The notes under the pieces: generated by a model
What the model was told of the DNA's origin: nothing
Database searches by the model: none
The model's input: only the letters and a program-made list of their open reading frames with translations
In this document: in pieces, positions 8,337-52,510 of the stretch
Position numbering within the stretch: position 1 is the stretch's first letter
Layout: every line of letters begins with the position of its first letter
Program-made: the position numbers and the translations under genes
Origin: Alphaproteobacteria bacterium
Lineage (GTDB): Bacteria; Pseudomonadota; Alphaproteobacteria; CAAHEQ01; UBA3637
DNA length: 64,000 nucleotides
Assembly (NCBI GenBank): GCA_017466695.1
Contig: JAFTTR010000023.1
Coordinates: forward strand, 49,583 to 113,582
Reading direction: 5' to 3'

Positions 8337-11117
8337 CTAGAAGCTATATTCAAACTTACTTACACCTGAATGGTCTTGATAGTCTTTTCTAAATGTCCCA
8401 CTGTATTCAAGTTTAAGCATTGATTTTTCAGTTAAATCAATAGCAACTCCTGATTTAAGCGTTGTACTAAAACGATCAAGCGCTTCACCAGATACGGTGT
8501 ATGTTGCTCCATTAGCAAGCGTATTAAGAGCACTCACGTCATCAGAAATAACATCATATCCAAATTGGATACCTAATGAGGGTCTAACTGCACCTAATGA
8601 CCATTCACCTTTAACACCTACTAATGCTGTCAAATAATTACTTGTCGAAGACCCAACACTCGTTCCAAGCGTATCCCTATATCCTTCTTGCTTAACAGAC
8701 ATGTAGCGAAGTCCGATCTCAGGTGTAATAATTGCTTTTTTATATGCGATATCATATCCCGTCATAATTTCAGCCCCCCAAGAATCCACATTATAATTTG
8801 CAGACCCGTGAGAAGATAAAATTTGTTTTTCTTCATCATATTGGCCTCTTGAATATGAAACAAGTCCAGAAAGCCACCATTGGTTCGGTTGATATTGGAC
8901 ACTTGCAAAAGCGGTATTTGTTGTTGCTTCGGTCCTACGAGCTTCTTCTTTAGATACAGTATCCGAAAAAGCATACCCCACACCAACTGTTAATTCATCT
9001 GAAACCTTCGATTGGACACCAATAACAGCCCCTTTACTTCTTGCTTTAAAACCTTCTCCCATTGTTGATTTTGTGTGGTCATAAAGTCCTTTGATATAAA
9101 CTTTAGCTCTTGCTTTTTCTTCACCACCAGAACGACCAACTGTTGATGAGGTGGCCATTTCACCTTTAACAATCCCAAAAACAGAACCTATATGCTCAGA
9201 GGCAATAGATTGAACTGCTGACTGTTCACTTGCTCCAATAGCTGATAATGCTTTTTTAACTTTTTCTTGTGCTCCTGAAATTTCAGATAGTAATACATTC
9301 AATACCTCATCTCGAAGGGCATTAAAAGCTTCATTCGAACTGTCATTTACCATAAGAGCTTCAACTGTTTTGGCTTTATTTTCATCAATTTTAAGTGATT
9401 GTGAAAGCTCAGGTGCTGTTTTTTTGTCAATTTTATAGGAGCCATTATTTAAATCTTCAATATTAAATAATACATTCGAAGATACTTTCAAATCACTTGC
9501 TGTGTCAAAAATTTGATACTCTCCCAATTCAACATCTGGTGTCAATTTAAAAGACAATTTTGAGGTTTCACTACCCTCAACCAATCCCTTAACTTTACCA
9601 TAATCAGAATGATTGTTTAAACTAACTTTTAAAGTTCCTTCATTTTCAAGAGTAAGACTCCCTGTTTCAAGAACACTTGTTTGAATATCCAATACACCCT
9701 TATTTTTGACAATGATATCTCCTGTACCAGAAATACCTCCATTTGTTAAAAGTCCTCCTTCTACTTGAATTGTACCCACATTATGAATATCGTTAAGAAC
9801 TCCATTGGATGTATTTCGCATAAAAATGTTATCTCCTTTAAAAATCAACATCCCTTCGTTATGAATGGCACCCCCTTCAGCTATACCTTCTTTAGAAACA
9901 ACTTTATTGTCAAAAAACATACCAGAATTAACAGTTAAGTGTGCATTTGATGCGTTTGAAATAGCTCCCCCTCTTGCACTGTCAACACCTTCGGCTTTGT
10001 TACCGATAAACTGAGCTTCTAAATCCGTTATTGTTCCAATATTAGAAATAGCACCCCCTTTGGCTTCTTTAGCTTCTGCCGTGTTATACAAAAACATCCC
10101 GTGGATAAAGTCAAGAGAAATACCCTCTCCATTATAAATAGCACCCCCTTCAGCAATGCTTTCTTTAGAGATAGCCTTATTATCAATATAATCCCCTTTT
10201 AAACTAAACCCACTCGTGCCATAACCAGATCGATATTTTAAGTTAATACCACCACCTAAAGCAGTTCCTGTTTCTGAAAGGGCATAGTTACCTAAAAAAT
10301 CACCTTCTAAATCAATATCCCAACCATAAAGAAATACAGCGCCACCTCCTGCTTCACCAGAAACAGATTCAGCATAGTTACCAATAAAGTGGCTATGAAC
10401 AGGATTGCTATATCCACCATAGTTTACAAGCGCACCCCCATTGGCTCTTGTACCTCCTTTTGCCCAGTTTGCAACAAAAATAGCCTTAGGTGCTCCTAAA
10501 TTTTCTTGACTGTAAATAGCACCTCCTTGTGCCGTTCCCTCACTGAGTGCTCCATTTGCAATATAATTCCCTTCCATGCTACTTACTTCCCAACCATACA
10601 CATTACCATAGGCCCCCCCTCTGGCTGTAGAAGCTCCATTTTGAATAATATTATTCACAAAATCACCTGTAAGTGTTATCGTTCCACCATACCAATTACT
10701 ATAAGCTCCCCCTAATTGATCCTTAGTAGAAATATCAACCCATGTACCTGAAATATCACCATCTGGACTATGATATCTTGGATTTGATTTTTCTGGATCA
10801 TAATTAGCAACAATCTCTATTTCTTTTCCAAACAGCTGAACAGCATATGTTCTTGAAACTTCATCATTCCCATAACTTTTATTTTTTAAATCAATTTCAT
10901 AATATTTATTTGTTAAGGCATTCCCTCCCTTATCATATTCAGGAAGTAAAACCGCATTTTCATGTTCTGAAGAAACTTCTTTTTTAATATATGGCGACTC
11001 AGCCATTGCCGGCATTGACAAAAAGATGAACCCTAAATTTGCAAGGAGACATTTTTTAAGAACATTTAAATATCTTTTTTTAAGCTCTCTGAGTGTGGTG
11101 CGTGAAAAAGTTGTCAT
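8337..11117 (-). CDS. Autotransporter (type Va) with Pmp-like GGAI repeats, 926 aa
   Basis: Extended signal peptide, repeated GGA(I/Y)xN / F..N motifs, C-terminal beta-barrel ending KFEYSF, AGGAGG RBS. Confidence 0.88.
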   Translation of the reverse strand: MTTFSRTTLRELKKRYLNVLKKCLLANLGFIFLSMPAMAESPYIKKEVSSEHENAVLLPEYDKGGNALTNKYYEIDLKNKSYGNDEVSRTYAVQLFGKEIEIVANYDPEKSNPRYHSPDGDISGTWVDISTKDQLGGAYSNWYGGTITLTGDFVNNIIQNGASTARGGAYGNVYGWEVSSMEGNYIANGALSEGTAQGGAIYSQENLGAPKAIFVANWAKGGTRANGGALVNYGGYSNPVHSHFIGNYAESVSGEAGGGAVFLYGWDIDLEGDFLGNYALSETGTALGGGINLKYRSGYGTSGFSLKGDYIDNKAISKESIAEGGAIYNGEGISLDFIHGMFLYNTAEAKEAKGGAISNIGTITDLEAQFIGNKAEGVDSARGGAISNASNAHLTVNSGMFFDNKVVSKEGIAEGGAIHNEGMLIFKGDNIFMRNTSNGVLNDIHNVGTIQVEGGLLTNGGISGTGDIIVKNKGVLDIQTSVLETGSLTLENEGTLKVSLNNHSDYGKVKGLVEGSETSKLSFKLTPDVELGEYQIFDTASDLKVSSNVLFNIEDLNNGSYKIDKKTAPELSQSLKIDENKAKTVEALMVNDSSNEAFNALRDEVLNVLLSEISGAQEKVKKALSAIGASEQSAVQSIASEHIGSVFGIVKGEMATSSTVGRSGGEEKARAKVYIKGLYDHTKSTMGEGFKARSKGAVIGVQSKVSDELTVGVGYAFSDTVSKEEARRTEATTNTAFASVQYQPNQWWLSGLVSYSRGQYDEEKQILSSHGSANYNVDSWGAEIMTGYDIAYKKAIITPEIGLRYMSVKQEGYRDTLGTSVGSSTSNYLTALVGVKGEWSLGAVRPSLGIQFGYDVISDDVSALNTLANGATYTVSGEALDRFSTTLKSGVAIDLTEKSMLKLEYSGTFRKDYQDHSGVSKFEYSF

Positions 11118-11194
11118 TGGATGCCTCCTTTAAATTCTTAATGTGACTGTTACATTTCTTTGTCCTTTTGTTAATTGTGTCGAGAGGGAAAATT

Positions 11195-11219
11195 AAACGG
11201 TCGTTTTTTTTACACGTTT
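11195..11219. repeat. Left 25-bp inverted repeat (IR-L)
   Basis: AAACGGTCGTTTTTTTTACACGTTT, the exact reverse complement of 11445-11469. Confidence 0.95.
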
Positions 11220-11238
11220 GTCCCCACCCCATACTTTA

Positions 11239-11269
11239 ATTATAACACCATTTTAAAAAATCGTCCCAA
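11239..11269 (-). promoter_or_regulatory. Sigma70-type extended -10 promoter (TGnTATAAT) facing the 926-aa autotransporter
   Basis: Minus strand TGtTATAAT (TATAAT at 11244-11239) with a weak TTGGGA -35; lies between IR-L and IR-R. Confidence 0.65.
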
Positions 11270-11444
11270 ATTTTTTCAAAAAAAAGAAGTGTTTTTTTGA
11301 AATTTTCTTAAAACATATTGAAAAATAAAGACTATTTTATATGACAAAAAGTGGCAAAAATATCAAAATTTTGTATTTTTTTGTTTTTTAAGAGTAAAAA
11401 ATAGGGATAAAATGACTTAATTTCCAGCCCCCAAAAAACTCAAA

Positions 11445-11469
11445 AAACGTGTAAAAAAAACGACCGTTT
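11445..11469. repeat. Right 25-bp inverted repeat (IR-R)
   Basis: AAACGTGTAAAAAAAACGACCGTTT, the exact reverse complement of 11195-11219. Confidence 0.95.
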
Positions 11470-11535
11470 TTTTTACTCAGTTTTAAATAAAATAACTTAT
11501 TGAAAAATATAAAATATATTAACTTTTCAATCTAT

Positions 11536-11588
11536 AAAAAAACCTCCAAAATGAACTTTTAAATAAAATTCGTTCAAAATGGAGGTTT
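11536..11588 (-). terminator. Intrinsic terminator of MFS gene (long loop)
   Basis: AAACCTCCA...TGGAGGTTT stem with inner TGAAC/GTTCA pairing, followed by a T tract on the minus strand. Confidence 0.55.
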
Positions 11589-11607
11589 ATCTAGTTATGA
11601 GCAAAAT

Positions 11608-12828
11608 CTATGCATCTTGACTCTTTAATATTTTGCTTAATGGATATAAAGAAATTAAGAAAATAGATAAATACACAAAAAATGAGTTCTGTAATGAAAT
11701 ATCATCTAATAAGAATTTAAATAAAATAAGCAGACCTCCAGCAATTGAGCGAGAAATCATATTATTCACTGAAGCAACCGTTGACCTTTCTTCTGACCCC
11801 ACATATGTGTGCAATCTTGAGATATTTGCCATAGTAAAAGATAATTGAAAACCAATAACAATACAAATAAACGTTAAAAGAACAAAGCCCAAAACTGGAG
11901 ATTGGAAACGAACAACAGCTGCACAGAATAAAAACGAAATCACAAACAAAACAAATGTAACTTTACCCAACGTTTTCATTGGCAAAACACCAATTGTTTT
12001 TGGAAGCAAGATACCAGCTAATGCTCGACATCCATGATTAATAGCATAGATAACACCAAACAAAACAACAGGTATTCCAGCCGTTTTCATCAAAGGTTGA
12101 AAACTCCACACAAATACCATTGTTGTCCCAGCTAACATACCAGAATAAAACATATAATACTTAATTTTTTCATTCCGAAGTGCATTTTTAGAAATTTCAA
12201 ATAACTCTTTATATTTTGCTTTAAGTCCTTTGATGCGTTTTCGAGCAGAGGGTACTTTTGGTAAAAAGAAAAGTAAACCGATTGCAGATACATTCAAAGC
12301 AATTTCAATTGAAATTAACACAGGGAAACCATATTTTTTATATAAAATCGGCCCTACAAAAGAAGCAATGGCCGTCCCAATTGACATGCAAAAATTCATT
12401 TTACCATAGCGTTGAAGCATACGATTTGTTTTATTTTGACTTTTTAAATAATCATAAATATAACCATCAGCTACGCCGGCATAAGAGGCTTTTGAAAGTG
12501 AATATAAAACCTCCCCTGCCAAAATAATCCAATAAGCATTATTTTTAAATGGTTCAAATCCAGAAACCAAAACGGACCATAAAACCAGTCTTAACAAAAA
12601 CATTGAAAATGAAAAAACCAGCATATTCCTACGAGGGAAAATATCTCCTAAATAACCAGATGGAATTTCAAATAAAAGCGCCGTAATTGAAAATATCCCT
12701 TGGAACAAAAAGAAATCACCAGCTGTCAATCCATTTTCTTGATAGAAAAATAACAAAACTGGTAACATCAAAATTTGCGTTTGTAAAAATGTTGAAAAAT
12801 TAAATACCCTAAGTGGATTGGAAAACAT
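11608..12828 (-). CDS. MFS transporter
   Basis: About 12 TM segments; EIPSGYLGDIFPRR corresponds to MFS motif A. Confidence 0.85.
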   Translation of the reverse strand: MFSNPLRVFNFSTFLQTQILMLPVLLFFYQENGLTAGDFFLFQGIFSITALLFEIPSGYLGDIFPRRNMLVFSFSMFLLRLVLWSVLVSGFEPFKNNAYWIILAGEVLYSLSKASYAGVADGYIYDYLKSQNKTNRMLQRYGKMNFCMSIGTAIASFVGPILYKKYGFPVLISIEIALNVSAIGLLFFLPKVPSARKRIKGLKAKYKELFEISKNALRNEKIKYYMFYSGMLAGTTMVFVWSFQPLMKTAGIPVVLFGVIYAINHGCRALAGILLPKTIGVLPMKTLGKVTFVLFVISFLFCAAVVRFQSPVLGFVLLTFICIVIGFQLSFTMANISRLHTYVGSEERSTVASVNNMISRSIAGGLLILFKFLLDDISLQNSFFVYLSIFLISLYPLSKILKSQDA

Positions 12829-34326: not shown

Positions 34327-37300
34327 TTAGAACTTATATTTTGCACTGGCTTTCCCTGTGTGGTTTGTATAATCCCCTTTAAAGTTACCTTCATATTCAA
34401 AGGCAATTTCTGCTTTTCTATTCACATCAAACCCAACTCTAGCCCCAATTTCAATACCAAATCTATCCATACTCTCACCATCAACTTGATAAAGGGCTCC
34501 ATTAGGAAGTGTAATCTTGTTTTCGAACTCTGGTTCAATTAAGTCATAAGTTGAAGCAATTCTTAACTCAGGATACCATGAAATAACTGGTGATAAACGA
34601 TATCCAATAGAATAGGATACACCCAGAACTCCCGTTAAAATTTGCGTATCAGAACTGGCCACTCTTTGACCTGCTTCATCTTCATATTCATGTTGTTTTA
34701 AATATGTATATCTTAAACCCATTTCTGGAGAAATAACACCAGTTGCCCAATTTTTAGAAACGAAAGGCCCCATTTTTTTACCAACCATGACTTGAGCACT
34801 CAACATATCAACATCATAGTCAGCTTTAATACGGTGTTGGAATACCTTTTTATTTTCTTCATAAGAAGAACGCCCATACAGTGCCTGCCAATTCACATAC
34901 ACACGACTTGGATTATATTCACCATACGCCATAATGACATGAGAAGTGATATCTGTATCTCTTTGAACAGCACTTCCATCAGCTTTCATATGAGCATAAG
35001 CAAGCCCTATTTTGCTATTATCAGCAATAGGCGTATCAAACCCAAAGGCTAAGCCTGTTGTATCCATATCAAATCCTTTTGCCCCTGAAATCTCAGAAGT
35101 ACCATAAATTGTTTGTACCCACATACGAGATTCTTTTTTAGGGAATTTGTAGAAACGATATCCTCTATGAGTATATCCTGTTTGTTCAGAAGCAGTACTT
35201 AATTGTTTAGAAACAATTGTAGATAAGCGATTGATAATCTCAAATGAATGGGATTGAATAAGCGCAGATGTGTCTGGAGCTAATCCTTCAAGAGCTGCAA
35301 TATACTCTTTAGAATTTGGTCCTAAAATTTGAGCCATATCATTCAACGTATCTTGAATTTCTTTTGGTTTACCCTCTTCTTCAATAGGCTCCCCTAAAAC
35401 AAACTCATCATGAATACAGTGAATCCCTTTACAAACACCTGGTTTTTTTGAAGGAGCTGGAGGTGGAGTTGGCTCAACAGGCGCTTTACCAGACCCAGGA
35501 CAGTCACTTCCTTTGGTGCAAAGTTGATATTCCCCATTTCCAATATAATAAATGTCATACATTGAGTTTTCTAAAACTCTTGCAAATCCACTCTCAGCTG
35601 GGGCATTGAGTGTTTCAGCATCCAAAAGTGTGAAATTTTTATATCCTGTTGTAAAGTGTTCCCCTGTTGCAACCACAATGGCAAGTTCTGTTCCTTTATC
35701 TGAAACATGAATTGTGTTACCAGATACCTTACCATATTCAGTGCCAGATAAGGCATTAATATGTGTGATTAATTTTGAATTATCATTAAAGGAAACTGTA
35801 TCCCCATGCAAAGTTGATTTTCCAATATCTAAAAAGCCGCCTTCTTGAACAACCACTTTGGCAAAAGAAAGATCTTGAGCATTAGATCCAATTGTTAAAT
35901 TATTCGCAATCAAATCGTTTGAAGTAGAGAACTTCCCTGCTACATCCAATGTGGCATTATTCATGTTCAGCGTCCCTACACCTGTTAAATTTGTCAAAGA
36001 TAACTGTCCATCACTCATCGTAACTGTACTATTATTTTCAACTTGTTCAAGTGTGTTTACCCCAGAAAGCGTTACTATTGCCGTATCACCAGAATTGGTT
36101 AATTTTGCAAGATCAAGACCTCTTGCTGTTAACACGCCTTTATTATTTAATGCATTAGCTTTTACATTTATCGCTTCAAGGGAACCTGTGTTTTCAATGT
36201 TTTGATCCACTGTTACTTGGGTCAAAGCCATTTGAGAAGCATTTTTAACAACCGTACCAGCTGTTGAGTCTTGAATGATAACATTTTCTAAGAGAACATC
36301 TCCTTTTTGGTTGTCAACAACAGTATTTGCTCCATCAATCGTGATATTTTTAACCTCTAATGAAGTATTTTGATTATCCAGTTTAAATAAGTCTTTTCCA
36401 TTTGCCTGAATGGTGCTTTCTGTGGCAACGGTTGAGGCACCTAAAATCTTTTTGTCCCCTCCTGATAATGTATCAATCGTTTCATCAGAAGAAACCTCAT
36501 AATTTGCCCCACCTTGAGCGCTTGCATCCATTTGCAAAGTGGCATTCCCCTCATATTTAGCCAAATATTCTAAAGGTGTATCTTTAATTTTATTCGCTTC
36601 AATTGAAACTGTTTGGTCTTCCGTCTTCATTTCGTAAACATAAGGAGAAGTGTTTGAAAGAAGCGCTGAGGAAGTCTCTTTAAAGGTTGCCTTACCACCT
36701 AATACAGCCGTTTCATATTTAATAGCTGGATCAAATTCCCCTGTTTGATCAAGAATAAGATTATTAATAAATGCATTCAAAAGCTCTTGTCCAGACACAT
36801 TAAATTCAACAGAACCAAAGGCATAATCTGTCTTTGTTGTAAGTTTATCCGTTGTTAAAGAGATAGAGCCATCTTCTTCTTGATTAAAAATCATATCAAT
36901 CAACAAGTTTGCTTCACTTCCTGTGAGATTTGTAAAGGTTGTTTCATCTTGTTGATTATTTTGCATATCAATTGTATTCGAATTATCAACCACATAGGCA
37001 CCAACATATGAAGAGGCCCCCAATTTAATATTCGCATCTTTAAAAGTTACTTTACCCCCATTTTGAGCAATATCTTTGTTAAGAGCATAAGTTGTCTTTG
37101 TCCCATTAGCAACACTTGCTGTGGTGAACAAAGTATTTGTCGCCCCATCTTCAACATAAGCGTCAATATAGCCTTGTTTGATATCATCCGTATAGGTACC
37201 AAACACAGCCTCAGAATTTGCATTTAAAGACACATTATCAAGGTTAGATGTACCCCCCGTGCTATAGTGTTTCCAAACAACTTTGTTACTTGAATCCGTT

Positions 37301-40300
37301 CCAGCAAACGATACCTTGAGATTAGAGGCATTCCCATGTGTTTCAAGTGTTCCCCCAGTAATCGTGTTCGTCTTGGCAAAGTTCATCTTACGCGTATCAG
37401 CAATTGTGAGCCCTGCGCTTTGCGTGAATGTAGCACTACCCACATAACCATTCACCATACCATCTCCGAGGATAAGTGTTCCTGCCCCTGTTTTGTTGAT
37501 TTTACCATCTTGTTGATAAATACCACCATCAAGTGTACCAACTGTTCCTGTACCACCTGCGAAAGTAATCGTTCCAGCATTATAAATATCAGCGCCTTTG
37601 GCATTTGCACTATCTGTTGCTGAAACAGTGTTACCACTAAAGAGGAAACCATCATTAAATGTGATAGAACTATCATTATAAATCGCCCCACCGTTAGCAT
37701 AGCTACCTATTGCTTTATTTGATGTAAAGATAACCTTATCATTAAACGAAATTGTCGCTGAAGGACCATTATAAATCGCCCCACCTAAAACACTAGAAGC
37801 CGTTGCAGAGTTTTCTGTAAAAATGGCTATATTATTGAATTTCATTCCTCCGTCATTGAAAATTGCCCCACCTGAAGCAGATGAACTTCCAGTAGAAACC
37901 GTGTTCTTTTCAAAAACAACCTCACCCACAAAATCAGTATCTGTTTGTTGGCTCGCATAAATTGCACCTCCTCGAGCTTCAACATTTTTACTTATCACAG
38001 AGTTATTTATAAATGATGTATTTCCTTTAAATGCTATATTTGAAGTATAATCATTATAAACAGCGCCTCCCCCCTGGTCGTAGCCACCTACTCCATTTAC
38101 TAAGTTTCCTGTAAATGACGTTACACCATCAACTGTAAGCGTGCCATTGTTATAAATTGCACCTCCTTTATAAGCATTATATTCACCAGAGGTAACTTCA
38201 TTATCCTTAAACAGGGCTCCATTTGAGGCATTTAATGTTAATGTTCCTTCATTTCTAACAGCGCTTGATGTGGCGCCTTGTACAACAACGTTATCAAGGT
38301 TAACGGTTGCTGTTGTATCTGAGGCTACTGTAATGACACTGCTAGCGCCATCGATGGTTACGTTCTTAAGAGTTGCCTCCCCTGCGTTTGAAGAGGTATA
38401 TTCCAACACCTTATAACCATTGGCTTGAATGATACTTTCTGAAGCATTACTTGTTGCCCCAATGATTTGTTTTTTATTTGTCCCAACTGGACCCATTGAA
38501 CTTGCAACTGGATTTGATGGGTTTTGATCCACGCTTGTGATTTGATAGGTATAAATGCCATCATTCAAATCCCCAGCCGTGGCCATATTAAACAAAGCGC
38601 TATAGTTCGAGCGTACCATTTTCCCAAGGTTAGTGTATTCAACAACGGAGACTGGAGTCCCTGTAATCGTGATATATTGCTCCCCTGCGATAACATTTGC
38701 AATCAACCCATCTAAGATACCATCCAATTCGAATGATTTTGTGTTGGCGAATGTGGCGCCCCCCTTCAATGCTTGATATGTTTCAACATTCTCAATACTT
38801 GTGATTAAACTTGTGTCAAGCGCTGTTAAATCAAACACAATCTGGGCAACTGTTGTGTCAATAATATCCCCAAAGTCCATTGATAAATCAATGTTTGTTG
38901 CTTGTAAGTTATTGAATGTTAAATGGTCTTTTGTCCCATTAATCAAGTTCATTGAACTTGTATCTGACAAAGCATAGTTCCCAGCATACGTAAGTGTTCC
39001 ACTGCCAAAGCTGACATCAGCATCTTTAAAGGTAACCACTGCTGCCTTTGAGGTGCTGGCAATGTCTGAGCTCAGTTTATAATGAGCCTTATCAATCGTG
39101 TTAGAGGTCAAAAGTTTGCCTGTTACATCATAGGCAGTGTATTTAATCGAGCCATCTGTGTTATAAACAACATTCCCATCTGAATCCAGTTCTGGAACAA
39201 CCTTAGTTGAAGCAAGTGCAACTTCTTCAGCTTTTGCTGAATCCGTATAGGCGCCAAAGACAACCTCTGCCCCTTTCACTGTAAGGCTCGTTGGCAAGCT
39301 GGCTTCTTGACTTGAGCTGTTCGTGGTTAAATAGGTGAGTTGAGCGCCATTTGAAACTGTGGCTGTTAAGTCACTTAAAGTACCTCCATGAACTCTGAGT
39401 TCCCCACCTGTGATGGTTTGCGTTTCCCCAAGTTTGAAGTTGCTTGTGTTGGCAATCGTAAGCCCTGCGCTTTGCGTAAAGGATGAAATTCTACCATAGT
39501 TATTCACCATACCATCCCCTAAAATGAGTGTCCCTGCCCCTGTTTTGTTGATTGTAGCAGAAGATTGATAAATACCCCCATCTAAAGAGCCAACTGTTCC
39601 TGTACCACCTGCGAAAATAATCGTTCCATCATTATAAATATCAGCGCCTTTAGCATTTGTAGTATTTGTGGCTGAAACAGTGTTGCCACTGAAGAGGAAC
39701 CCATCATTAAATGTGATAGAACTACAATTATAAATCGCCCCACCTTGAGCACTGTTTGTTGCTAAAATTTTATTATTTGTGAATGTTGCTTCTTCCTCAA
39801 ATGAAATATCTCCAAGACTATTAAAAATCGCTCCACCCCAAATATAACTGGACGCACCTGTTGCTGTTGCATTTATTGAGTTATTTGTAAAAGTAGTGGT
39901 CCCATCAAACTCAATGCTCCCACTATTATAAATCGCCCCACCACCCGTAGAATACTCTCCTGTGGCAGTTAGTGAATTGTTTGCAAATGAAGTTGCACCC
40001 TTAAATGTAATTGTCCCATCATAATAATTATAAATCACTCCACCACTAGCAAAATCACCGGTTGCAGTATTACCTGTAAATATAGCAGCCTTATTAAACG
40101 TAAGAGTAGATTCACCATAAAGAGCCTCCCTAGAATTAGAAATCACGCCACCTAAAACATTAGAACCCGTTGCAGAGTTATTTGTAAATATGGCATCATC
40201 AACAAATTCAATGGTTCCATTTTTATTATAAATCGTCCCACCTTCAACAGCAACAACTGAACCTGTACCTGTTACCGAGTTGCTTAAAAACTCAGCAGTC

Positions 40301-42846
40301 GAACCAAACTCAATTACACCTCTTTCATTATAAATTGCCCCACCAGCTACAGTTGATGCATCACCCTCAATCAAGTTCCGTTGAAAGGAAACAGCTTCAG
40401 TGAACTTGATTAAAGAAGATAAATCTAAACTAGTAGTATTATAAATCGCACCACCTAAAACGTTAGAACCCATTACTGAGTTATTTGCAAATGATGTTTC
40501 TCCATTAAATATAATTGAACTATCAGAGACGCTATAAATCGCCCCACCATGAAGAGAAGAGTCACCTGACAAAGCGCTATTTTTAAAATTCATTGCGCCA
40601 TTAAAGATGAGTGAGCTACTACCTGTAGTATCTAACCTTGAATTGTCAAAGGTGTAATTGGTTGCATAGGTGCCAGTTGCAACGGTTACGTCAGCGTCTT
40701 TAAAAATAACTTCCGAAGCACCAGTGATATCAGCTGTTAAGTTATAGCTTGCTCTATCAATGGTACTAGCTGTTAAAAGGTTTGCGCTTGCATCATACCC
40801 AGAAAAAAACGTATTATCGCTTATTAAATCAAGCTCTGCTTGTTTTTCAGCCGATGTATAAGCCCCCAAAGTTAAAACAACATCCGTGAGTGATACTGTG
40901 CTTGGCAAGGCAATATCTAGCACTGAGCTGTTCGTGGTTAAATAGGTGAGCTGGGCACCATCTGAAACACTGGCTGTTAAGTTAGATAAACTATCCCCAT
41001 GAAGTTTTAAATGTGTCCCCTCGCCTGAAATGGTTTGTGTTTCCCCAAGGTTGAAGTTGCTTGTATTGGCAATGGTGAGCCCTGCTGTTTGCGTAAAGGA
41101 TGGGGTGAACGTTTCATTTTCATCAGAGGTATATGTTTCCCAGCTATTAACAGCATTATCCCCTAAAATAAGCGTCCCTGCACCTGTTTTGTTAATTGTA
41201 CCTCCTAACTGATGAATGCCACCATCTAAAGTACCAATTGTTCCTTCGCCAGCAGCAAAAATAATACTACTCTTTTCACCATTATAAATATCAGCCCCTT
41301 TGGCACTTGCGCTATCTGATGATGTTACCTTATTTTCAGTGAAGAGGAAGTTTTTGTTAAACGTTGTTGTACCATAGTTGTAAAGCGCACCCCCTAAAGC
41401 CAAACTGGTTGAAGTTGACTTTGCTTGATTTTTTTTAAATGTAACATTGTCGTTAAATGTCACTGTACCCTTATTATTCGTGCGAATAGCGCCCCCTCTG
41501 GTATTAGTAGCACCAGTTGCTATGTTGCCTTCAAACGTTGTAACACCTGAAAATGTAATCGAATCTTTGTTATAAATAGCGCCTCCTTGCGCAACACCTG
41601 AGGAAGATGTGGCCGTGTTATTTTTAAACTCCGTCACACCTGAAAATGTTACACTCGCTCCATCAGAATCATTGTAAATCGCCCCACCATAAGCATTCCC
41701 ATCTGTCCCCGTGGCTTTGACTGAGTTCCCTGAAAATGAAGCTCCTTTTTCAAACGTAACTGTGGTCGCAGTAGCCGTACTTGATAGATAATTGTAAATC
41801 GCCCCACCAGAAGCACTTTTAGATTCGGCTGAGGTGGAAGCTGAATTCCCACTAAACGTAGCCATATCTTTAAATGTCAGCGTTGAGGTACCAAGATAAC
41901 CCGTATAAATCGCCCCACCAACTGCAGAAGTACTTGTTGCAGTAGTTTTGTTGTTTGAGAATGTGGCAGTTTTTTGAAATTCCAGCGAACCATTCGTATT
42001 ACCAATCGCCCCACCTAGACGGGAAGCTGTATTCCCAGTGAATGTGGCCGTATTTTTAAATATAAATGATGAATCATAAGCATCAATTGCCCCACCATCA
42101 CTAGCAGAGTTATTTGTAAAGGAAGCTGTATTATTAAATGTATTGGTTGATTCATCAGCCCAAATCGCCCCACCATCACCTCCAGCAGAGTTACTTGTAA
42201 AAGTAGCTGCTTTATTAAATATAAGAGTTGGATTAGTTGCAATCCCATTATAAATTGCACCTCCATCACCAGCAGCCGAGTTATTTGAAAATGTAGCTGT
42301 ACCACCAAATGTTATCTTCCCCTCGTTATCAATTGCCCCAGCCCAAGGAATAATACCACCATCAATCACACTATTAGATTTGAATGTTGTATCCCCAGCA
42401 AAGAAAATTGTTCCACTATTATAAATCGCCGCAGCATGACTCCGATCATCTGAGTTTGAGGGAAAGGATGCTGTAATTTTATTATTACTAAAAGAAAGAT
42501 GTCCGGCACCTAAAAATGAAATTGTCCCAGCATTCCTTAAACGACCACCGATAAACCCTGTACCAGTAAGGTTCACGGATTTTAAGGCGATAAGGCCTGT
42601 GCTTGCGTTTTCTTCACTTTCAGCATAAGTGACGGAAATGTTCGTTCCACTCGCAACAATCGTTGTTGTTGATGAAGAAGCTAAATCTGATTTTAACGTT
42701 GCTGCATTCGTTGCCGTTCCTGAAACAGCAGGAACAGAAAAAGCCCCCAAACTAAAAGCCAACACATTCAAGAGGAAACATTTTTTCAACAAATTAAAAT
42801 ATCTTTTTTTTGATTTTCCAAGTATTAAACAGGTATAATTTTTCAT
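34327..42846 (-). CDS. Giant modular autotransporter (~2840 aa) with Pmp-like GGAIYN repeats
   Basis: Dozens of GGAIYN / F..N repeats, three INKTGAGTLILG modules, beta-barrel ending AKYKF; start ATG 42846 after a GAAGGGGG RBS. Confidence 0.9.
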   Translation of the reverse strand: MKNYTCLILGKSKKRYFNLLKKCFLLNVLAFSLGAFSVPAVSGTATNAATLKSDLASSSTTTIVASGTNISVTYAESEENASTGLIALKSVNLTGTGFIGGRLRNAGTISFLGAGHLSFSNNKITASFPSNSDDRSHAAAIYNSGTIFFAGDTTFKSNSVIDGGIIPWAGAIDNEGKITFGGTATFSNNSAAGDGGAIYNGIATNPTLIFNKAATFTSNSAGGDGGAIWADESTNTFNNTASFTNNSASDGGAIDAYDSSFIFKNTATFTGNTASRLGGAIGNTNGSLEFQKTATFSNNKTTATSTSAVGGAIYTGYLGTSTLTFKDMATFSGNSASTSAESKSASGGAIYNYLSSTATATTVTFEKGASFSGNSVKATGTDGNAYGGAIYNDSDGASVTFSGVTEFKNNTATSSSGVAQGGAIYNKDSITFSGVTTFEGNIATGATNTRGGAIRTNNKGTVTFNDNVTFKKNQAKSTSTSLALGGALYNYGTTTFNKNFLFTENKVTSSDSASAKGADIYNGEKSSIIFAAGEGTIGTLDGGIHQLGGTINKTGAGTLILGDNAVNSWETYTSDENETFTPSFTQTAGLTIANTSNFNLGETQTISGEGTHLKLHGDSLSNLTASVSDGAQLTYLTTNSSVLDIALPSTVSLTDVVLTLGAYTSAEKQAELDLISDNTFFSGYDASANLLTASTIDRASYNLTADITGASEVIFKDADVTVATGTYATNYTFDNSRLDTTGSSSLIFNGAMNFKNSALSGDSSLHGGAIYSVSDSSIIFNGETSFANNSVMGSNVLGGAIYNTTSLDLSSLIKFTEAVSFQRNLIEGDASTVAGGAIYNERGVIEFGSTAEFLSNSVTGTGSVVAVEGGTIYNKNGTIEFVDDAIFTNNSATGSNVLGGVISNSREALYGESTLTFNKAAIFTGNTATGDFASGGVIYNYYDGTITFKGATSFANNSLTATGEYSTGGGAIYNSGSIEFDGTTTFTNNSINATATGASSYIWGGAIFNSLGDISFEEEATFTNNKILATNSAQGGAIYNCSSITFNDGFLFSGNTVSATNTTNAKGADIYNDGTIIFAGGTGTVGSLDGGIYQSSATINKTGAGTLILGDGMVNNYGRISSFTQSAGLTIANTSNFKLGETQTITGGELRVHGGTLSDLTATVSNGAQLTYLTTNSSSQEASLPTSLTVKGAEVVFGAYTDSAKAEEVALASTKVVPELDSDGNVVYNTDGSIKYTAYDVTGKLLTSNTIDKAHYKLSSDIASTSKAAVVTFKDADVSFGSGTLTYAGNYALSDTSSMNLINGTKDHLTFNNLQATNIDLSMDFGDIIDTTVAQIVFDLTALDTSLITSIENVETYQALKGGATFANTKSFELDGILDGLIANVIAGEQYITITGTPVSVVEYTNLGKMVRSNYSALFNMATAGDLNDGIYTYQITSVDQNPSNPVASSMGPVGTNKKQIIGATSNASESIIQANGYKVLEYTSSNAGEATLKNVTIDGASSVITVASDTTATVNLDNVVVQGATSSAVRNEGTLTLNASNGALFKDNEVTSGEYNAYKGGAIYNNGTLTVDGVTSFTGNLVNGVGGYDQGGGAVYNDYTSNIAFKGNTSFINNSVISKNVEARGGAIYASQQTDTDFVGEVVFEKNTVSTGSSSASGGAIFNDGGMKFNNIAIFTENSATASSVLGGAIYNGPSATISFNDKVIFTSNKAIGSYANGGAIYNDSSITFNDGFLFSGNTVSATDSANAKGADIYNAGTITFAGGTGTVGTLDGGIYQQDGKINKTGAGTLILGDGMVNGYVGSATFTQSAGLTIADTRKMNFAKTNTITGGTLETHGNASNLKVSFAGTDSSNKVVWKHYSTGGTSNLDNVSLNANSEAVFGTYTDDIKQGYIDAYVEDGATNTLFTTASVANGTKTTYALNKDIAQNGGKVTFKDANIKLGASSYVGAYVVDNSNTIDMQNNQQDETTFTNLTGSEANLLIDMIFNQEEDGSISLTTDKLTTKTDYAFGSVEFNVSGQELLNAFINNLILDQTGEFDPAIKYETAVLGGKATFKETSSALLSNTSPYVYEMKTEDQTVSIEANKIKDTPLEYLAKYEGNATLQMDASAQGGANYEVSSDETIDTLSGGDKKILGASTVATESTIQANGKDLFKLDNQNTSLEVKNITIDGANTVVDNQKGDVLLENVIIQDSTAGTVVKNASQMALTQVTVDQNIENTGSLEAINVKANALNNKGVLTARGLDLAKLTNSGDTAIVTLSGVNTLEQVENNSTVTMSDGQLSLTNLTGVGTLNMNNATLDVAGKFSTSNDLIANNLTIGSNAQDLSFAKVVVQEGGFLDIGKSTLHGDTVSFNDNSKLITHINALSGTEYGKVSGNTIHVSDKGTELAIVVATGEHFTTGYKNFTLLDAETLNAPAESGFARVLENSMYDIYYIGNGEYQLCTKGSDCPGSGKAPVEPTPPPAPSKKPGVCKGIHCIHDEFVLGEPIEEEGKPKEIQDTLNDMAQILGPNSKEYIAALEGLAPDTSALIQSHSFEIINRLSTIVSKQLSTASEQTGYTHRGYRFYKFPKKESRMWVQTIYGTSEISGAKGFDMDTTGLAFGFDTPIADNSKIGLAYAHMKADGSAVQRDTDITSHVIMAYGEYNPSRVYVNWQALYGRSSYEENKKVFQHRIKADYDVDMLSAQVMVGKKMGPFVSKNWATGVISPEMGLRYTYLKQHEYEDEAGQRVASSDTQILTGVLGVSYSIGYRLSPVISWYPELRIASTYDLIEPEFENKITLPNGALYQVDGESMDRFGIEIGARVGFDVNRKAEIAFEYEGNFKGDYTNHTGKASAKYKF
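37340..37690 (-). repeat. Passenger module copy 3
   Basis: High nucleotide similarity to ~39390-39740 (SSITFNDGFLFSGNTVSAT...KGADIYN...INKTGAGTLILGDGMVN...FTQSAGLTIA). Boundaries approximate. Confidence 0.8.
39310..39740 (-). repeat. Passenger module copy 2
   Basis: Similar to copies 1 and 3; includes an exact 27-bp match 39313-39339 = 40924-40950. Confidence 0.8.
40920..41310 (-). repeat. Passenger module copy 1
   Basis: KGADIYNG...INKTGAGTLILGD...FTQTAGLTIANTSNF.LGETQTI...GAQLTYLTTNSS. Confidence 0.75.
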
Positions 42847-42957
42847 CAAATGTCCCCCTTCATAAAATGACATGATACCCTGTCAAAATCCATCAACACA
42901 TAGAAAAACAAAAAAATATCTCCTTCATTTTCTCATTTTTCTTTCGTTCATATACTA

Positions 42958-42987
42958 ATTATAGCACTTTTTTTGTATTTGTACCAA
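42958..42987 (-). promoter_or_regulatory. Extended -10 promoter of the giant autotransporter
   Basis: Minus strand TTGGTA-N18-TATAAT with TGc extension; homologous to the 11239-11269 promoter. Confidence 0.65.
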
Positions 42988-43146
42988 AAATTTTTCAAAA
43001 AAAGAGCTTATTTTTTTAATATTTTCTTACATTATATTGATTTTAAAAGAAAATTTAAAATATTAAACAAGTCAAAAAAAAAGCAAATCACCCCTTTTTT
43101 TGGGTTTAAACATTAAAAAAAAGCGTTATTTTAATAAGGAGTATGA

Positions 43147-51796: not shown

Positions 51797-52120
51797 ATGC
51801 AAAAAACAGTTATTGAACAAGAATCAAAGTATGATATTTTAAGAAATTCTGCTGGGGAATTGTTATTTATTATCCGTGCACGTTTAACAAATGAAGAAAA
51901 ACCAACCATCATTTATGACGGTGGAGAACATGCCATTTTATACAGAAACAGCAATAATACAATTGTTTTAGACTATATCAACCCTAATGTTCGTCAGAAT
52001 TTAACAAAATCTACAAAGGTATTGGTTGTAGAAGCACAAGGCTCTTCCATTGTTAGAGAATACTTTTCTTCAGTTAAATCAGTTGAAAAAGTTCCATTAC
52101 CAGAAATTCAAACCATTTAA
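51797..52120 (+). CDS. Hypothetical protein
   Basis: GAGG RBS, 107-aa globular-looking ORF followed by a strong terminator. Confidence 0.7.
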   Translation: MQKTVIEQESKYDILRNSAGELLFIIRARLTNEEKPTIIYDGGEHAILYRNSNNTIVLDYINPNVRQNLTKSTKVLVVEAQGSSIVREYFSSVKSVEKVPLPEIQTI

Positions 52121-52131
52121 AATATATCCAC

Positions 52132-52165
52132 AAAAAAAGCTTCCCTTTAAAGGGAAGCTTTTTTT
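52132..52165. terminator. Bidirectional terminator (perfect palindrome)
   Basis: AAAAAAAGCTTCCCTTTAAAGGGAAGCTTTTTTT between convergent genes. Confidence 0.85.
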
Positions 52166-52219: not shown

Positions 52220-52510
52220 TCACACAGTTGGTTTTTGAATAAAAACACCTTCTATTATTTCAGGCTGAACAGCATTCGATATTTGCACTGGCTCTAAATG
52301 CGTTACATTTGCCCACAAAGGACCTTTCTGGCATTCTAAAAGAAAGACATCAATTGCCTCATCCTTTCCAACGGCTTTTACTTCAACAGAACCATCTGAT
52401 CGATTTCTAACCCAACCAGATAATCTAAGTACAATAGCTTGACGTGTGCACCAGGCACGATATCCTACACCTTGCACACGCCCATGGACATAAAAATGAA
52501 CTTCTTTCAT
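52220..52510 (-). CDS. acyP: Acylphosphatase
   Basis: GRVQGVGYR, GWVRNRSDGSVE, GP..A.V. Confidence 0.92.
   Translation of the reverse strand: MKEVHFYVHGRVQGVGYRAWCTRQAIVLRLSGWVRNRSDGSVEVKAVGKDEAIDVFLLECQKGPLWANVTHLEPVQISNAVQPEIIEGVFIQKPTV

What the first reader, a model, noticed from the sequence alone, without database searches (positions are those of the whole stretch)
11195..11469. Candidate invertible promoter (DNA switch) controlling an autotransporter
Seen in sequence: two perfect 25-bp inverted repeats (11195-11219 and 11445-11469) enclose a 225-bp segment. It contains an extended -10 promoter (TGtTATAAT) now pointing at the 926-aa autotransporter, and an intrinsic terminator (11536-11588) blocks read-through from the upstream MFS gene. 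Each repeat has inverted arms (AAACG.../...CGTTT) around an asymmetric T8 spacer, which resembles a site-specific (tyrosine-type) recombinase site. Established: fim switches and Bacteroides invertible promoters phase-vary surface structures this way, often through a trans-acting invertase. Inference: this is an ON-state phase-variation switch. I am not aware of one described for an alphaproteobacterial autotransporter. No recombinase is encoded in the window.
Basis: partly seen in the sequence, partly recalled or inferred. Interest (0 to 1): 0.9.

Follow-up and report, generated by a model that had tools for sequence, protein, structure and literature searches.

The report
Flippable promoter before a surface-protein gene
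A 260-bp promoter segment in front of an adhesin-like autotransporter gene of an uncultured gut alphaproteobacterium lies in either orientation (or is deleted) in different samples, so it is a real on/off DNA switch of a well-known kind, found here in a bacterial group where none has been studied.

Summary
Perfect 25-bp inverted repeats (11195-11219, 11445-11469) flank a 225-bp segment, with none expected by chance.

The main reading, an invertible promoter now ON, is supported by natural variation:
- The same locus is flipped in contigs of other gut metagenomes (X4, X21, X8).
- Both junction types occur in one MAG contig (L001).
- Autotransporter genes 45-66% identical in related bacteria sit in other neighbourhoods but carry a homologous switch. 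It is ON in L047 and L048 and OFF in L045, L049 and L050.
- A third allele (X5, X8) lacks the segment and keeps a single site.

In every locus the dyad centre is CG-GT-CG or CG-AC-CG, with 12-bp half-sites around an asymmetric 2-bp core. That is the architecture of hix/gix sites of serine invertases. The T8 run is part of a half-site, not a spacer.

A conserved extended -10 (TGnTATAAT) points at the autotransporter. The element is not a MITE: the 25-mer occurs at one locus in 185,579 species genomes.

No recombinase lies in the window or in 18 kb beyond it, so the invertase acts in trans and remains unidentified.

It is a known kind of switch: ipuS/UpaE in E. coli, Mpi in Bacteroides.

The parts
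11188..11213 (.). Left (autotransporter-proximal) recombination site, GAAAATTAAACG|GT|CGTTTTTTTTAC: 12-bp half-sites around the core GT at 11200-11201
   Evidence: Both half-sites match the degenerate half-site consensus GNAAAWNWAASG 12/12. Homologous sites in L045, L049 and L050 have the same centre.
11451..11476 (.). Right (MFS-proximal) recombination site, GTAAAAAAAACG|AC|CGTTTTTTTTAC: a perfect 12+2+12 palindrome with the core AC at 11463-11464, inverted relative to the left core
   Evidence: One of only two 12/12 palindromes of this form in the 64-kb window. Scores 12/12 + 12/12 against the consensus.
11195..11219 (+).
11445..11469 (-).
11202..11462 (.). Invertible segment between the two cores (261 bp), here in the ON orientation
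   Evidence: Found in reverse orientation relative to the flanks in X4, X8 record 10, X21 and the tip of L001. Absent in X5 and X8 record 8.
11239..11247 (-). Extended -10 promoter element TGTTATAAT, reading towards the autotransporter
   Evidence: Read from the sequence. TGnTATAAT is invariant in all homologous switches and upstream of the second autotransporter gene. The TSS has not been mapped.
11118..11201 (-). Predicted 5' leader of the autotransporter mRNA outside the segment, with the RBS AGGAGG (plus strand CCTCCT, 11124-11129)
   Evidence: Sequence. The leader is conserved in L001, L045-L050.
8337..11117 (-). 926-aa Pmp-like autotransporter (GGA[IVL] repeats, C-terminal beta-barrel), the controlled gene
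   Evidence: PF03797 at E 1.7e-32. 95% identical in L001. Orthologues or paralogues at 45-66% identity each have a switch.
11535..11593 (.). Hairpin terminator after the MFS gene. U7 follows on the minus strand; on the plus strand the U tail is weaker. It also faces the promoter when the segment is OFF.
   Evidence: Folds at -22.2 kcal/mol (z -3.8) on the minus strand and -16.7 kcal/mol (z -4.3) on the plus strand.
11608..12828 (-). MFS transporter gene, the upstream neighbour; not part of the switch
   Evidence: PF07690. In an 87%-identical relative (L005) no autotransporter or switch follows it.
11465..11476 (+). Direct 12-mer CGTTTTTTTTAC, also present at 11202-11213. These are the end points of the deletion that gives the 'empty' allele.
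   Evidence: In X5 and X8 contigs the A flank joins the B flank through one site...AAACGGTC(A/G)-T7/8-ACTCAG.... Direct repeat family D3.
42956..43123 (-). Paralogous, non-invertible copy of the promoter module, upstream of the 2848-aa PMP-repeat protein (34327-42873, minus strand)
   Evidence: 67% identity over 169 nt, E 2.7e-8. The alignment shares the TGnTATAAT element and the T8GAAAAA block, and there are no flanking repeats.

Best explanation
This is a site-specific invertible promoter (an inverton) that phase-varies a Pmp-like autotransporter. A 261-bp segment (11202-11462) carries an extended -10 promoter. It is bounded by two 26-bp recombination sites in inverted orientation, each made of two 12-bp half-sites (consensus GNAAAWNWAASG) around an asymmetric 2-bp core: GT at 11200-11201 and AC at 11463-11464. 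A recombinase encoded elsewhere in the genome binds both sites, cuts at the cores and rotates the segment.

In the window's orientation the promoter reads through the left site and an ~115-nt leader into the autotransporter gene (ON). When flipped, it reads towards the hairpin terminator behind the MFS gene, and the autotransporter loses its promoter (OFF). A third, irreversible state arises by deletion between the direct 12-mers CGTTTTTTTTAC (11202-11213 and 11465-11476). That leaves one site and no promoter.

Shown: the repeats, both orientations and the deletion in natural populations, conservation of the switch with the gene across species, and conservation of the promoter element. Inferred: the crossover at the 2-bp core, a serine (Hin/Mpi-like) rather than a tyrosine recombinase (about 60:40), the TSS, and reversibility within a clone.
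For: 1. Perfect 25-bp repeats, with 0 expected by chance.
2. Flipped orientation at the same locus. In X4 a contig covers 11445-11838, and the 30 nt before 11445 are the exact reverse complement of 11220-11249. An X21 contig spans A flank-repeat-right end of the segment. X8 record 10 shows an 'opposite strands' joint at 11219/11350.
3. L001 is a MAG of a 95%-identical strain. It carries A flank-site-segment-site-A flank(reverse), and its first 50 nt are an exact reverse complement of 326-375. Both A-side junction types therefore existed in one sample.
4. Homologous switches lie upstream of autotransporters 45-66% identical, in different gene neighbourhoods. The promoter faces the gene in L047 and L048 and faces away in L045, L049 and L050. 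Three of six contigs break at or inside the switch.
5. Every switch has exactly one GT-core and one AC-core site, 263-277 bp apart. Nothing comparable turned up in the 53 sequences searched. In L049 each site is an 11/12 palindrome about the core.
6. In L001 the G/A difference at base 9 of the repeat travels with the segment end. This places the crossover outside it, as a core at bases 6-7 predicts.
7. TGnTATAAT is invariant in all copies and upstream of a second autotransporter gene.
8. The terminator folds.
9. Trans-acting serine invertases on ~200-bp promoter segments are established (Mpi, PMC10403206), as are 26-bp hix sites (PMC3798978).
Against: - No recombinase gene was found in the 64-kb window or in 18 kb further along the source contig. 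The rest of the genome could not be searched.
- All orientation evidence comes from assembled contigs, not raw reads. Switching within one clone, and its rate, are not shown.
- The L001 fold-back and its G/A difference could also come from two co-resident strains.
- No transcript data exist, so the promoter and TSS rest on sequence conservation.
- Weak promoter-like matches on the other strand of the segment could give residual expression in the OFF state.
- Site symmetry alone cannot exclude a tyrosine recombinase that uses CGGTCG as its overlap region.
Confidence: 0.85

Rival explanations
1. The same invertible promoter, but run by a tyrosine recombinase (Fim/IpuA/RecV type). Either it works as the first reader proposed (arms AAACGGTCG and ACACGTTT around a T8 overlap), or CGGTCG serves as a 6-bp overlap region.
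For: - The 25-bp perfect repeat is exactly arm+T8+arm.
- The only characterised autotransporter switch, ipuS, uses tyrosine recombinases (PMC6083910).
- A second T8-containing copy in direct orientation (11461-11476) would let such an enzyme excise the segment, giving the empty allele.
Against: - Homologous switches in L045, L049 and L050 have no T8 run at all, yet keep CGGTCG/CGACCG at the centre of a 12+2+12 dyad.
- In L045 the repeat ends right after GGTCGTT, so a crossover 3' of it is impossible there.
- The G/A difference in L001 lies directly beside T8 on the flank side but moves with the segment.
- These points argue against the T8-spacer version. The CGGTCG-overlap version remains open.
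Confidence: 0.3
2. The inversions are rare accidents of general (RecA-dependent) recombination between the inverted repeats. They became fixed as differences between strains, so this is not a programmed phase-variation switch.
For: Only consensus contigs were available. Most samples show one orientation. Within-sample mixture is shown only indirectly, by the L001 contig tip and by contigs that break at the repeat.
Against: - Both orientations recur independently in at least two species-level lineages and at three or more loci.
- The repeats are only 19-38 bp, poor substrates for RecA (established knowledge).
- The repeats evolve as dyad-symmetric protein-binding sites with a conserved centre while their outer sequence changes. 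That is expected for recombinase sites, not for passive repeats.
Confidence: 0.07
3. The element is a MITE or fold-back transposon remnant with terminal inverted repeats that happened to land upstream of the gene. The 'empty' allele would then be the uninserted site.
For: A 275-bp non-coding element with terminal inverted repeats. Strains without it exist.
Against: - There is no target-site duplication: the flanks are ...AAATT and TTTTT....
- No other copy occurs in the window. There is one locus in 185,579 species genomes and none in JGI metagenome contigs.
- The element holds the gene's conserved promoter and accompanies the gene in other neighbourhoods.
- It inverts in place.
- The more divergent relatives have it, so the empty allele is derived.
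Confidence: 0.03
4. The reversed copies are assembly artefacts caused by the inverted repeats.
For: Inverted repeats are known to confuse assemblers. The L001 contig end is itself a fold-back that cannot be a true chromosome structure.
Against: The repeats (25-38 bp) are much shorter than the 141-mers behind the k141 contigs L001, L045, L049 and L050. The 25-bp perfect repeat of the window's own locus is also shorter than the 31-letter words behind the Logan contigs. Every junction in a contig therefore had to be spanned by real reads. The reversed junctions appear in independent studies and assemblers.
Confidence: 0.02

Closest known systems
Bacteroides fragilis Mpi system (serine recombinase inverting 7-13 capsular-polysaccharide promoters in trans)
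   Same: - A short (~200-280 bp) promoter-only segment between inverted repeats.
- No recombinase gene next to the switch.
- The target is a surface structure of a gut commensal.
- Several loci may share one site type: L049 and L050 come from one assembly and have near-identical sites.
- Mpi is a serine recombinase acting at many loci (PMC10403206).
- From memory only, not verified here: the Bacteroides repeats were described as hin-like, with a motif close to AAACGGTCGT (Patrick et al. 2003; only the title was confirmed, through PMC3090145).
   Different: - A different phylum (uncultured gut Alphaproteobacteria).
- The target is an autotransporter, not a polysaccharide operon.
- The promoter is a sigma-70 extended -10, not the Bacteroides TAnnTTTG type.
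Hin/hix, Gin/gix, Cin, Pin DNA invertases
   Same: 26-bp sites built from two 12-bp inverted half-sites with A/T tracts next to a 2-bp asymmetric core. The core is inverted between the two sites. hix sites are 26 bp (PMC3798978); the 12+2+12 layout is established knowledge.
   Different: - In those systems the invertase gene and its Fis enhancer lie inside or beside a 1-3 kb segment.
- Here the segment is 261 bp, has no ORF, and no recombinase lies within about 82 kb.
- No enhancer is identified.
ipuS switch of uropathogenic E. coli CFT073 (controls ipuR-upaE)
   Same: An invertible promoter element that turns an autotransporter adhesin ON and OFF (PMC6083910).
   Different: - ipuS is flipped by tyrosine recombinases (IpuA, FimE and others) encoded next to it.
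- It has no sequence or site similarity to this switch.
- It is gammaproteobacterial.
Inverton near two autotransporter-domain genes in Akkermansia muciniphila (PhaseFinder-type survey of a defined gut community)
   Same: A gut commensal with a short intergenic inverton beside autotransporter genes. Its orientation shifts during colonisation (PMC11892184).
   Different: A different phylum, 17-bp repeats, mechanism uncharacterised. No sequence relation was tested.

Membership tests
Invertible promoter (inverton) phase-variation switch | Short intergenic segment bounded by inverted repeats | tested here: met
   25-bp perfect repeats 225 bp apart, with 0 expected by chance.
Invertible promoter (inverton) phase-variation switch | Both orientations exist in natural DNA | tested here: met
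   Same locus: ON in the window, X1, X2 and X22; OFF in X4, X21 and X8. Related loci: ON in L047 and L048; OFF in L045, L049 and L050.
Invertible promoter (inverton) phase-variation switch | A promoter inside the segment drives the adjacent gene in one orientation only | tested here: inconclusive
   A conserved TGnTATAAT faces the gene. No RNA data are available, so the TSS is not mapped.
Invertible promoter (inverton) phase-variation switch | Reversible switching within a clonal population | not testable with these tools
   Only assembled contigs were served. The L001 fold-back tip shows both junction types in one sample but cannot separate strains from switching.
Invertible promoter (inverton) phase-variation switch | A dedicated site-specific recombinase | not testable with these tools
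Serine DNA invertase system (Hin/Gin/Mpi type) | Recombination sites of two ~12-bp inverted half-sites around a 2-bp asymmetric crossover dinucleotide, in inverted orientation | tested here: met
   Window: 12/12 palindrome at 11451-11476 (core AC) and 9/12 at 11188-11213 (core GT). L049: 11/12 for both sites. The same centre is found in all four switch families.
Serine DNA invertase system (Hin/Gin/Mpi type) | A small serine recombinase (PF00239 with a C-terminal HTH) catalyses the inversion | not testable with these tools
   The genome could not be searched.
Serine DNA invertase system (Hin/Gin/Mpi type) | Invertase gene and recombinational enhancer inside or next to the segment (Hin/Gin subclass) | tested here: not met
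   There is no ORF in the 261-bp segment and no recombinase in the window. If a serine enzyme is involved, it is therefore of the Mpi-like trans-acting kind.
Tyrosine-recombinase switches (fimS, hyxS, ipuS, cwpV) | Recombinase gene(s) adjacent to the switch; short repeats with a 6-8 bp overlap region | tested here: not met
   There is no adjacent recombinase. The proposed T8 overlap is absent from the homologous switches. A CGGTCG overlap cannot be excluded.
MITE / non-autonomous transposon | Many copies at unrelated loci, with target-site duplications | tested here: not met
   Two arms only in the window; one locus in 185,579 species genomes; none in JGI metagenome contigs; no target duplication.

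The most novel reading that the evidence does not exclude
A clade of uncultured gut Alphaproteobacteria has independently evolved an Mpi-like arrangement. One orphan, trans-acting (probably serine) invertase would recognise a clade-specific 12+2+12 site and flip the promoters of several Pmp-like autotransporter genes, giving combinatorial surface variation. The perfectly palindromic outer site would supply a built-in route to permanent silencing, by deletion between direct half-sites. That deletion is already seen in wild strains, once together with an out-of-frame deletion in the gene itself.
Probability: 0.35. Interest if true: 0.65.

Novelty: new member of a known kind. Interest (0 to 1): 0.55.

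Why it matters
These low-GC Alphaproteobacteria are common but uncultured inhabitants of human and animal guts, and almost nothing is known about how they deal with the host or with phages. The switch shows that they phase-vary a major surface adhesin-like protein by DNA inversion. The same device accompanies the gene family across species.

It also provides a concrete site consensus (GNAAAWNWAASG-GT/AC-CSTTWNWTTTNC). With it, further switches and the missing invertase can be sought in MAGs. The three natural alleles (ON, OFF, deleted) can be scored in metagenomes.

For the field of phase variation it adds a lineage and a site family, not a new principle.

Tried and rejected
A genome-wide search for further copies of the site and for recombinases was therefore impossible.
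- Read laying refuses 11355-11394, so the switch had to be laid in two halves. Only Logan contigs were served, never raw reads, so no ON:OFF ratio could be measured.
- The long X1/X2 contig was laid but silently missing.
- JGI metagenome contigs hold no copy of the 25-mer. The MFS-based scan found only one close relative (L005, 87%), which lacks the autotransporter and the switch. The other 38 loci were distant MFS homologues of no use here.
- Rfam found nothing in the window. The RNA-run search found only one run, at 3% of words.
- I walked 18 kb along the source contig for an invertase and found none. One look-up was lost to a wrong start codon.
- Notes of earlier readers on this genome mention no recombinase.
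- The remembered Bacteroides repeat motif could not be verified: the text search gave 0 hits, and Coyne 2003 and Johnson 2015 are not held.
- Rejected readings: MITE, assembly artefact, and a T8-spacer tyrosine site (see the rival explanations).
- The TTGAAA block 30 nt upstream of TATAAT is too far away to be its -35. It is conserved, including at the non-invertible paralogue, so it is promoter-associated rather than a recombination enhancer.

Full report
**1. Observation**

The window has about 34% G+C. Exact-word matches place it in gut metagenomes of several studies. Its closest named relative is a MAG labelled Alphaproteobacteria bacterium.

The repeats are as described. 11195-11219 (AAACGGTCGTTTTTTTTACACGTTT) and 11445-11469 are exact reverse complements with 225 bp between them. 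Even with three mismatches allowed they are the only two copies in 64 kb, and none is expected in shuffles. They form the longest inverted repeat with arms within 1.5 kb anywhere in the window.

The flanking genes, both on the minus strand, are:
- a 926-aa protein with a C-terminal autotransporter beta-domain (PF03797, E 1.7e-32);
- an MFS transporter.

TGTTATAAT lies at 11247-11239 on the minus strand, facing the autotransporter. An AGGAGG ribosome-binding site sits 6 nt before its ATG. The hairpin at 11535-11593 folds well (-22.2 kcal/mol, z -3.8) and is followed by U7 on the MFS strand. The simple scan missed it because its loop is 15 nt.

**2. Does the segment invert?**

I therefore examined the two junctions separately.

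Window-like (ON) orientation:
- X1 and X2, probably the source study;
- the ENA contig L002/L003;
- an X22 contig that runs unbroken across 11187-11337.

Reversed (OFF) orientation:
- X4 comes from another study, and its strain is about 96% identical. One contig matches 11445-11838, and the 30 nt before 11445 read GGTGTTATAATTAAAGTATGGGGTGGGGAC. That is the exact reverse complement of 11220-11249, so the segment is reversed against the MFS flank.
- In X21 a contig spans autotransporter flank, repeat and the right end of the segment. This is the reversed junction on the other side.
- In X8 a 434-nt contig of a more divergent strain has an 'opposite strands' joint at 11219/11350, again the reversed arrangement.

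Both junctions in one assembly:
- The MAG contig L001 has an autotransporter 95% identical to the window's. It begins with 50 nt that are the exact reverse complement of its own positions 326-375.
- It therefore reads flank-site-segment-site-flank(reverse).
- Such a fold-back is possible only if reads with both kinds of autotransporter-side junction were present in that sample.

**3. A third allele**

In X5 one 1432-nt contig matches 10895-11192 and 11468-11990, with only about ten bases between. The junction reads ...GGGAAAAAAACGGTCA-T7/8-ACTCAG.... X8 record 8 shows the same structure.

These strains therefore have one site and no promoter segment. The end points are the direct 12-mers CGTTTTTTTTAC at 11202-11213 and 11465-11476 (family D3). 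Deletion between short direct repeats at the base of an inverted repeat is a well-known slippage event (established knowledge).

More divergent relatives all carry the segment (see section 4), so the empty allele is derived. In X8 the same contig also lacks 155 nt (10936 to 11092) inside the 5' end of the gene. That length is not a multiple of three, which hints at gene decay after promoter loss.

**4. Relatives**

The autotransporter has full-length homologues at 45-66% identity. Their contigs show other gene neighbourhoods: MarC ... gene ... META/NUDIX/HAD in one, and HflX/RNHCP ... gene ... MetK in another. A homologous switch nevertheless sits directly upstream in each.
- L045: the TGGTATAAT element faces away from the gene.
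- L047 and L048: it faces the gene.
- L049 and L050: it faces away.
- L046 starts exactly at the repeat, and L047 and L048 end inside the switch. Contigs behave this way at a mixed-orientation site.

The switch therefore travels with the gene family, and both states recur in other species. An MFS gene 87% identical (L005) is not followed by an autotransporter or a switch. The autotransporter with its switch, not the MFS gene, is the unit.

**5. Anatomy of the sites**

The relatives show otherwise. In L049 the sites are:
- GGAAATCTAACG|GT|CGTTAGATTTGC
- GCAAATCTAACG|AC|CGTTAGATTTCC

Each is an 11/12 palindrome about a central dinucleotide, and there is no T run.

Read the same way, the window's right site 11451-11476 is GTAAAAAAAACG|AC|CGTTTTTTTTAC, a perfect 12+2+12 palindrome. 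Only two of that form exist in the window. Its left site 11188-11213 is GAAAATTAAACG|GT|CGTTTTTTTTAC.

A degenerate half-site, GNAAAWNWAASG, finds exactly one GT-core and one AC-core site in every switch locus, 263-277 bp apart. In the 53 sequences held it finds nothing else apart from one weak, unpaired match at 3996, which recurs on the overlapping copy L051.

Two further observations place the crossover at or near the core:
- The repeats of the different species share only ...(A/G)(C/G)GGTCGTT. In L045 the repeat ends immediately after it.
- In L001 the two copies differ at base 9 (G or A, window 11203). That base goes with the segment end, not with the flank, so the exchange lies to its outer side. 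This holds only if one strain is involved.

Two 12-bp inverted half-sites, A/T tracts next to the centre and a 2-bp asymmetric core that is inverted between the partners: this is the architecture of the hix and gix sites of serine invertases. The 26-bp length of hix is documented (PMC3798978); the 12+2+12 layout is established knowledge.

It is not proof. A tyrosine enzyme using CGGTCG as its overlap region remains possible. I put serine against tyrosine at about 60:40. The T8-spacer model is unlikely.

**6. Promoter**

An alignment of all switches shows TGnTATAAT and the following A..TAT as the only invariant block. A T8GAAAAA block and A-rich stretches upstream are also conserved.

I confirmed it. 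11237-11404 matches 42956-43123, upstream of the 2848-aa PMP-repeat protein, at 67% identity (E 2.7e-8). That copy has no flanking repeats.

The conserved interior is therefore promoter equipment, not a recombination enhancer. One of the two paralogous promoters in this genome has been made invertible.

The TTGAAA block lies 30 nt from TATAAT, too far to serve as its -35. The extended -10 may act alone. Alternatively, the TTGAAA-18-TAAAAT pair found by the scan may be used in this species. No RNA data exist.

**7. The invertase**

Pfam finds no resolvase or integrase domain in any of the 50 non-overlapping ORFs of 90 aa or more listed (for three ORFs through precomputed Pfam hits on the identical contig). 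None appears among the called genes of the next 18 kb of the 220-kb source contig. The flanks of L045 and L049 also carry none.

The enzyme therefore acts in trans, as Mpi does in Bacteroides (PMC10403206). L049 and L050 are two different autotransporter loci with nearly identical sites from one assembly. This suggests, but does not show, that one enzyme serves several switches.

**8. Rivals**

- MITE. There is no target duplication and no other copy in the window. The 25-mer occurs at one locus in 185,579 species genomes and at none in JGI metagenome contigs. The element holds the gene's own conserved promoter.
- Assembly artefact. The repeats (25-38 bp) are much shorter than the 141-mers behind the k141 contigs L001, L045, L049 and L050. 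The window locus's 25-bp perfect repeat is also shorter than the 31-letter words behind the Logan contigs. Each junction therefore needs spanning reads. The reversed junctions come from independent studies.
- Passive RecA inversions. The repeats are too short. The inversion recurs in several lineages. The repeats evolve like protein-binding dyads.

**9. Comparison and novelty**

In function this is an ordinary inverton. Invertible promoters in front of autotransporters are known in E. coli (ipuS-upaE, tyrosine recombinases, PMC6083910). One has been seen beside autotransporter genes in Akkermansia (PMC11892184). Surveys list invertons in Alphaproteobacteria without characterising any (PMC11602134). 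A text search for 'inverton' together with 'Alphaproteobacteria' found only that work.

What is new:
- the lineage, uncultured low-GC gut Alphaproteobacteria;
- a defined hix-like site family that accompanies a Pmp-like autotransporter family across species;
- the absence of a nearby recombinase;
- a natural deletion allele explained by the palindromic outer site.

I rate it a new member of a known kind, of moderate interest.

**10. Limits**

No raw reads, no transcript data and no whole-genome search were available. Reversibility within a clone, the TSS and the identity and class of the recombinase remain inferences.

Noticed in passing
window 42956-43123 (upstream of ORF 34327-42873, minus strand): A second, much larger PMP-repeat protein (2848 aa, PF02415) has a paralogous copy of the promoter module: the same TGnTATAAT element, the T8GAAAAA block and A-rich upstream stretches. 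It has no flanking inverted repeats, so it would be a fixed rather than an invertible version.
   Followed up: partly
window 11268-11313: This A/T-rich stretch inside the segment (TTTTTTCAAAAAAAAGAAGTGTTTTTTTGAAATTTTC...) matches many unrelated short contigs in many gut metagenomes with 4-5 mismatches, one of them at depth 36. It is either low complexity or a widespread promoter-upstream motif of gut bacteria.
   Followed up: no
window 10936-11092 (run X8, record 8): The strain that has lost the promoter segment also lacks 155 nt inside the 5' end of the autotransporter gene. That is out of frame, as if the gene were decaying after being silenced.
   Followed up: no
L049 3622-3924 and L050 115-417 (both from assembly ERZ27316435): Two different autotransporter loci in one assembly carry switches with nearly identical 38-bp repeats, both in the OFF orientation. 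One invertase may control both.
   Followed up: partly
run X4, 241-nt contig laid on L001 42-78: A further switch-like junction with different flanks (...CCTTTTGTTAATGTCTTAAAAGT | repeat | TTCCCTCTCCATAATTTAATTATACCACC...). It is another paralogue or species carrying the same kind of switch in that sample.
   Followed up: no
L045 1811-2700: In this relative the genes upstream of the switch (MarC, a 410-aa protein, a formate/nitrite transporter) are divergent from the autotransporter. In the OFF orientation the promoter would read into them, so the switch might toggle between two targets there. In the window it reads only towards a terminator.
   Followed up: no
window 52132-52165: A perfect 20-nt palindrome, AAAAAAAGCTTCCCTTTAAA/TTTAAAGGGAAGCTTTTTTT, lies between ORFs 51797-52120(+) and 52220-52510(-). 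It looks like a bidirectional terminator.
   Followed up: no
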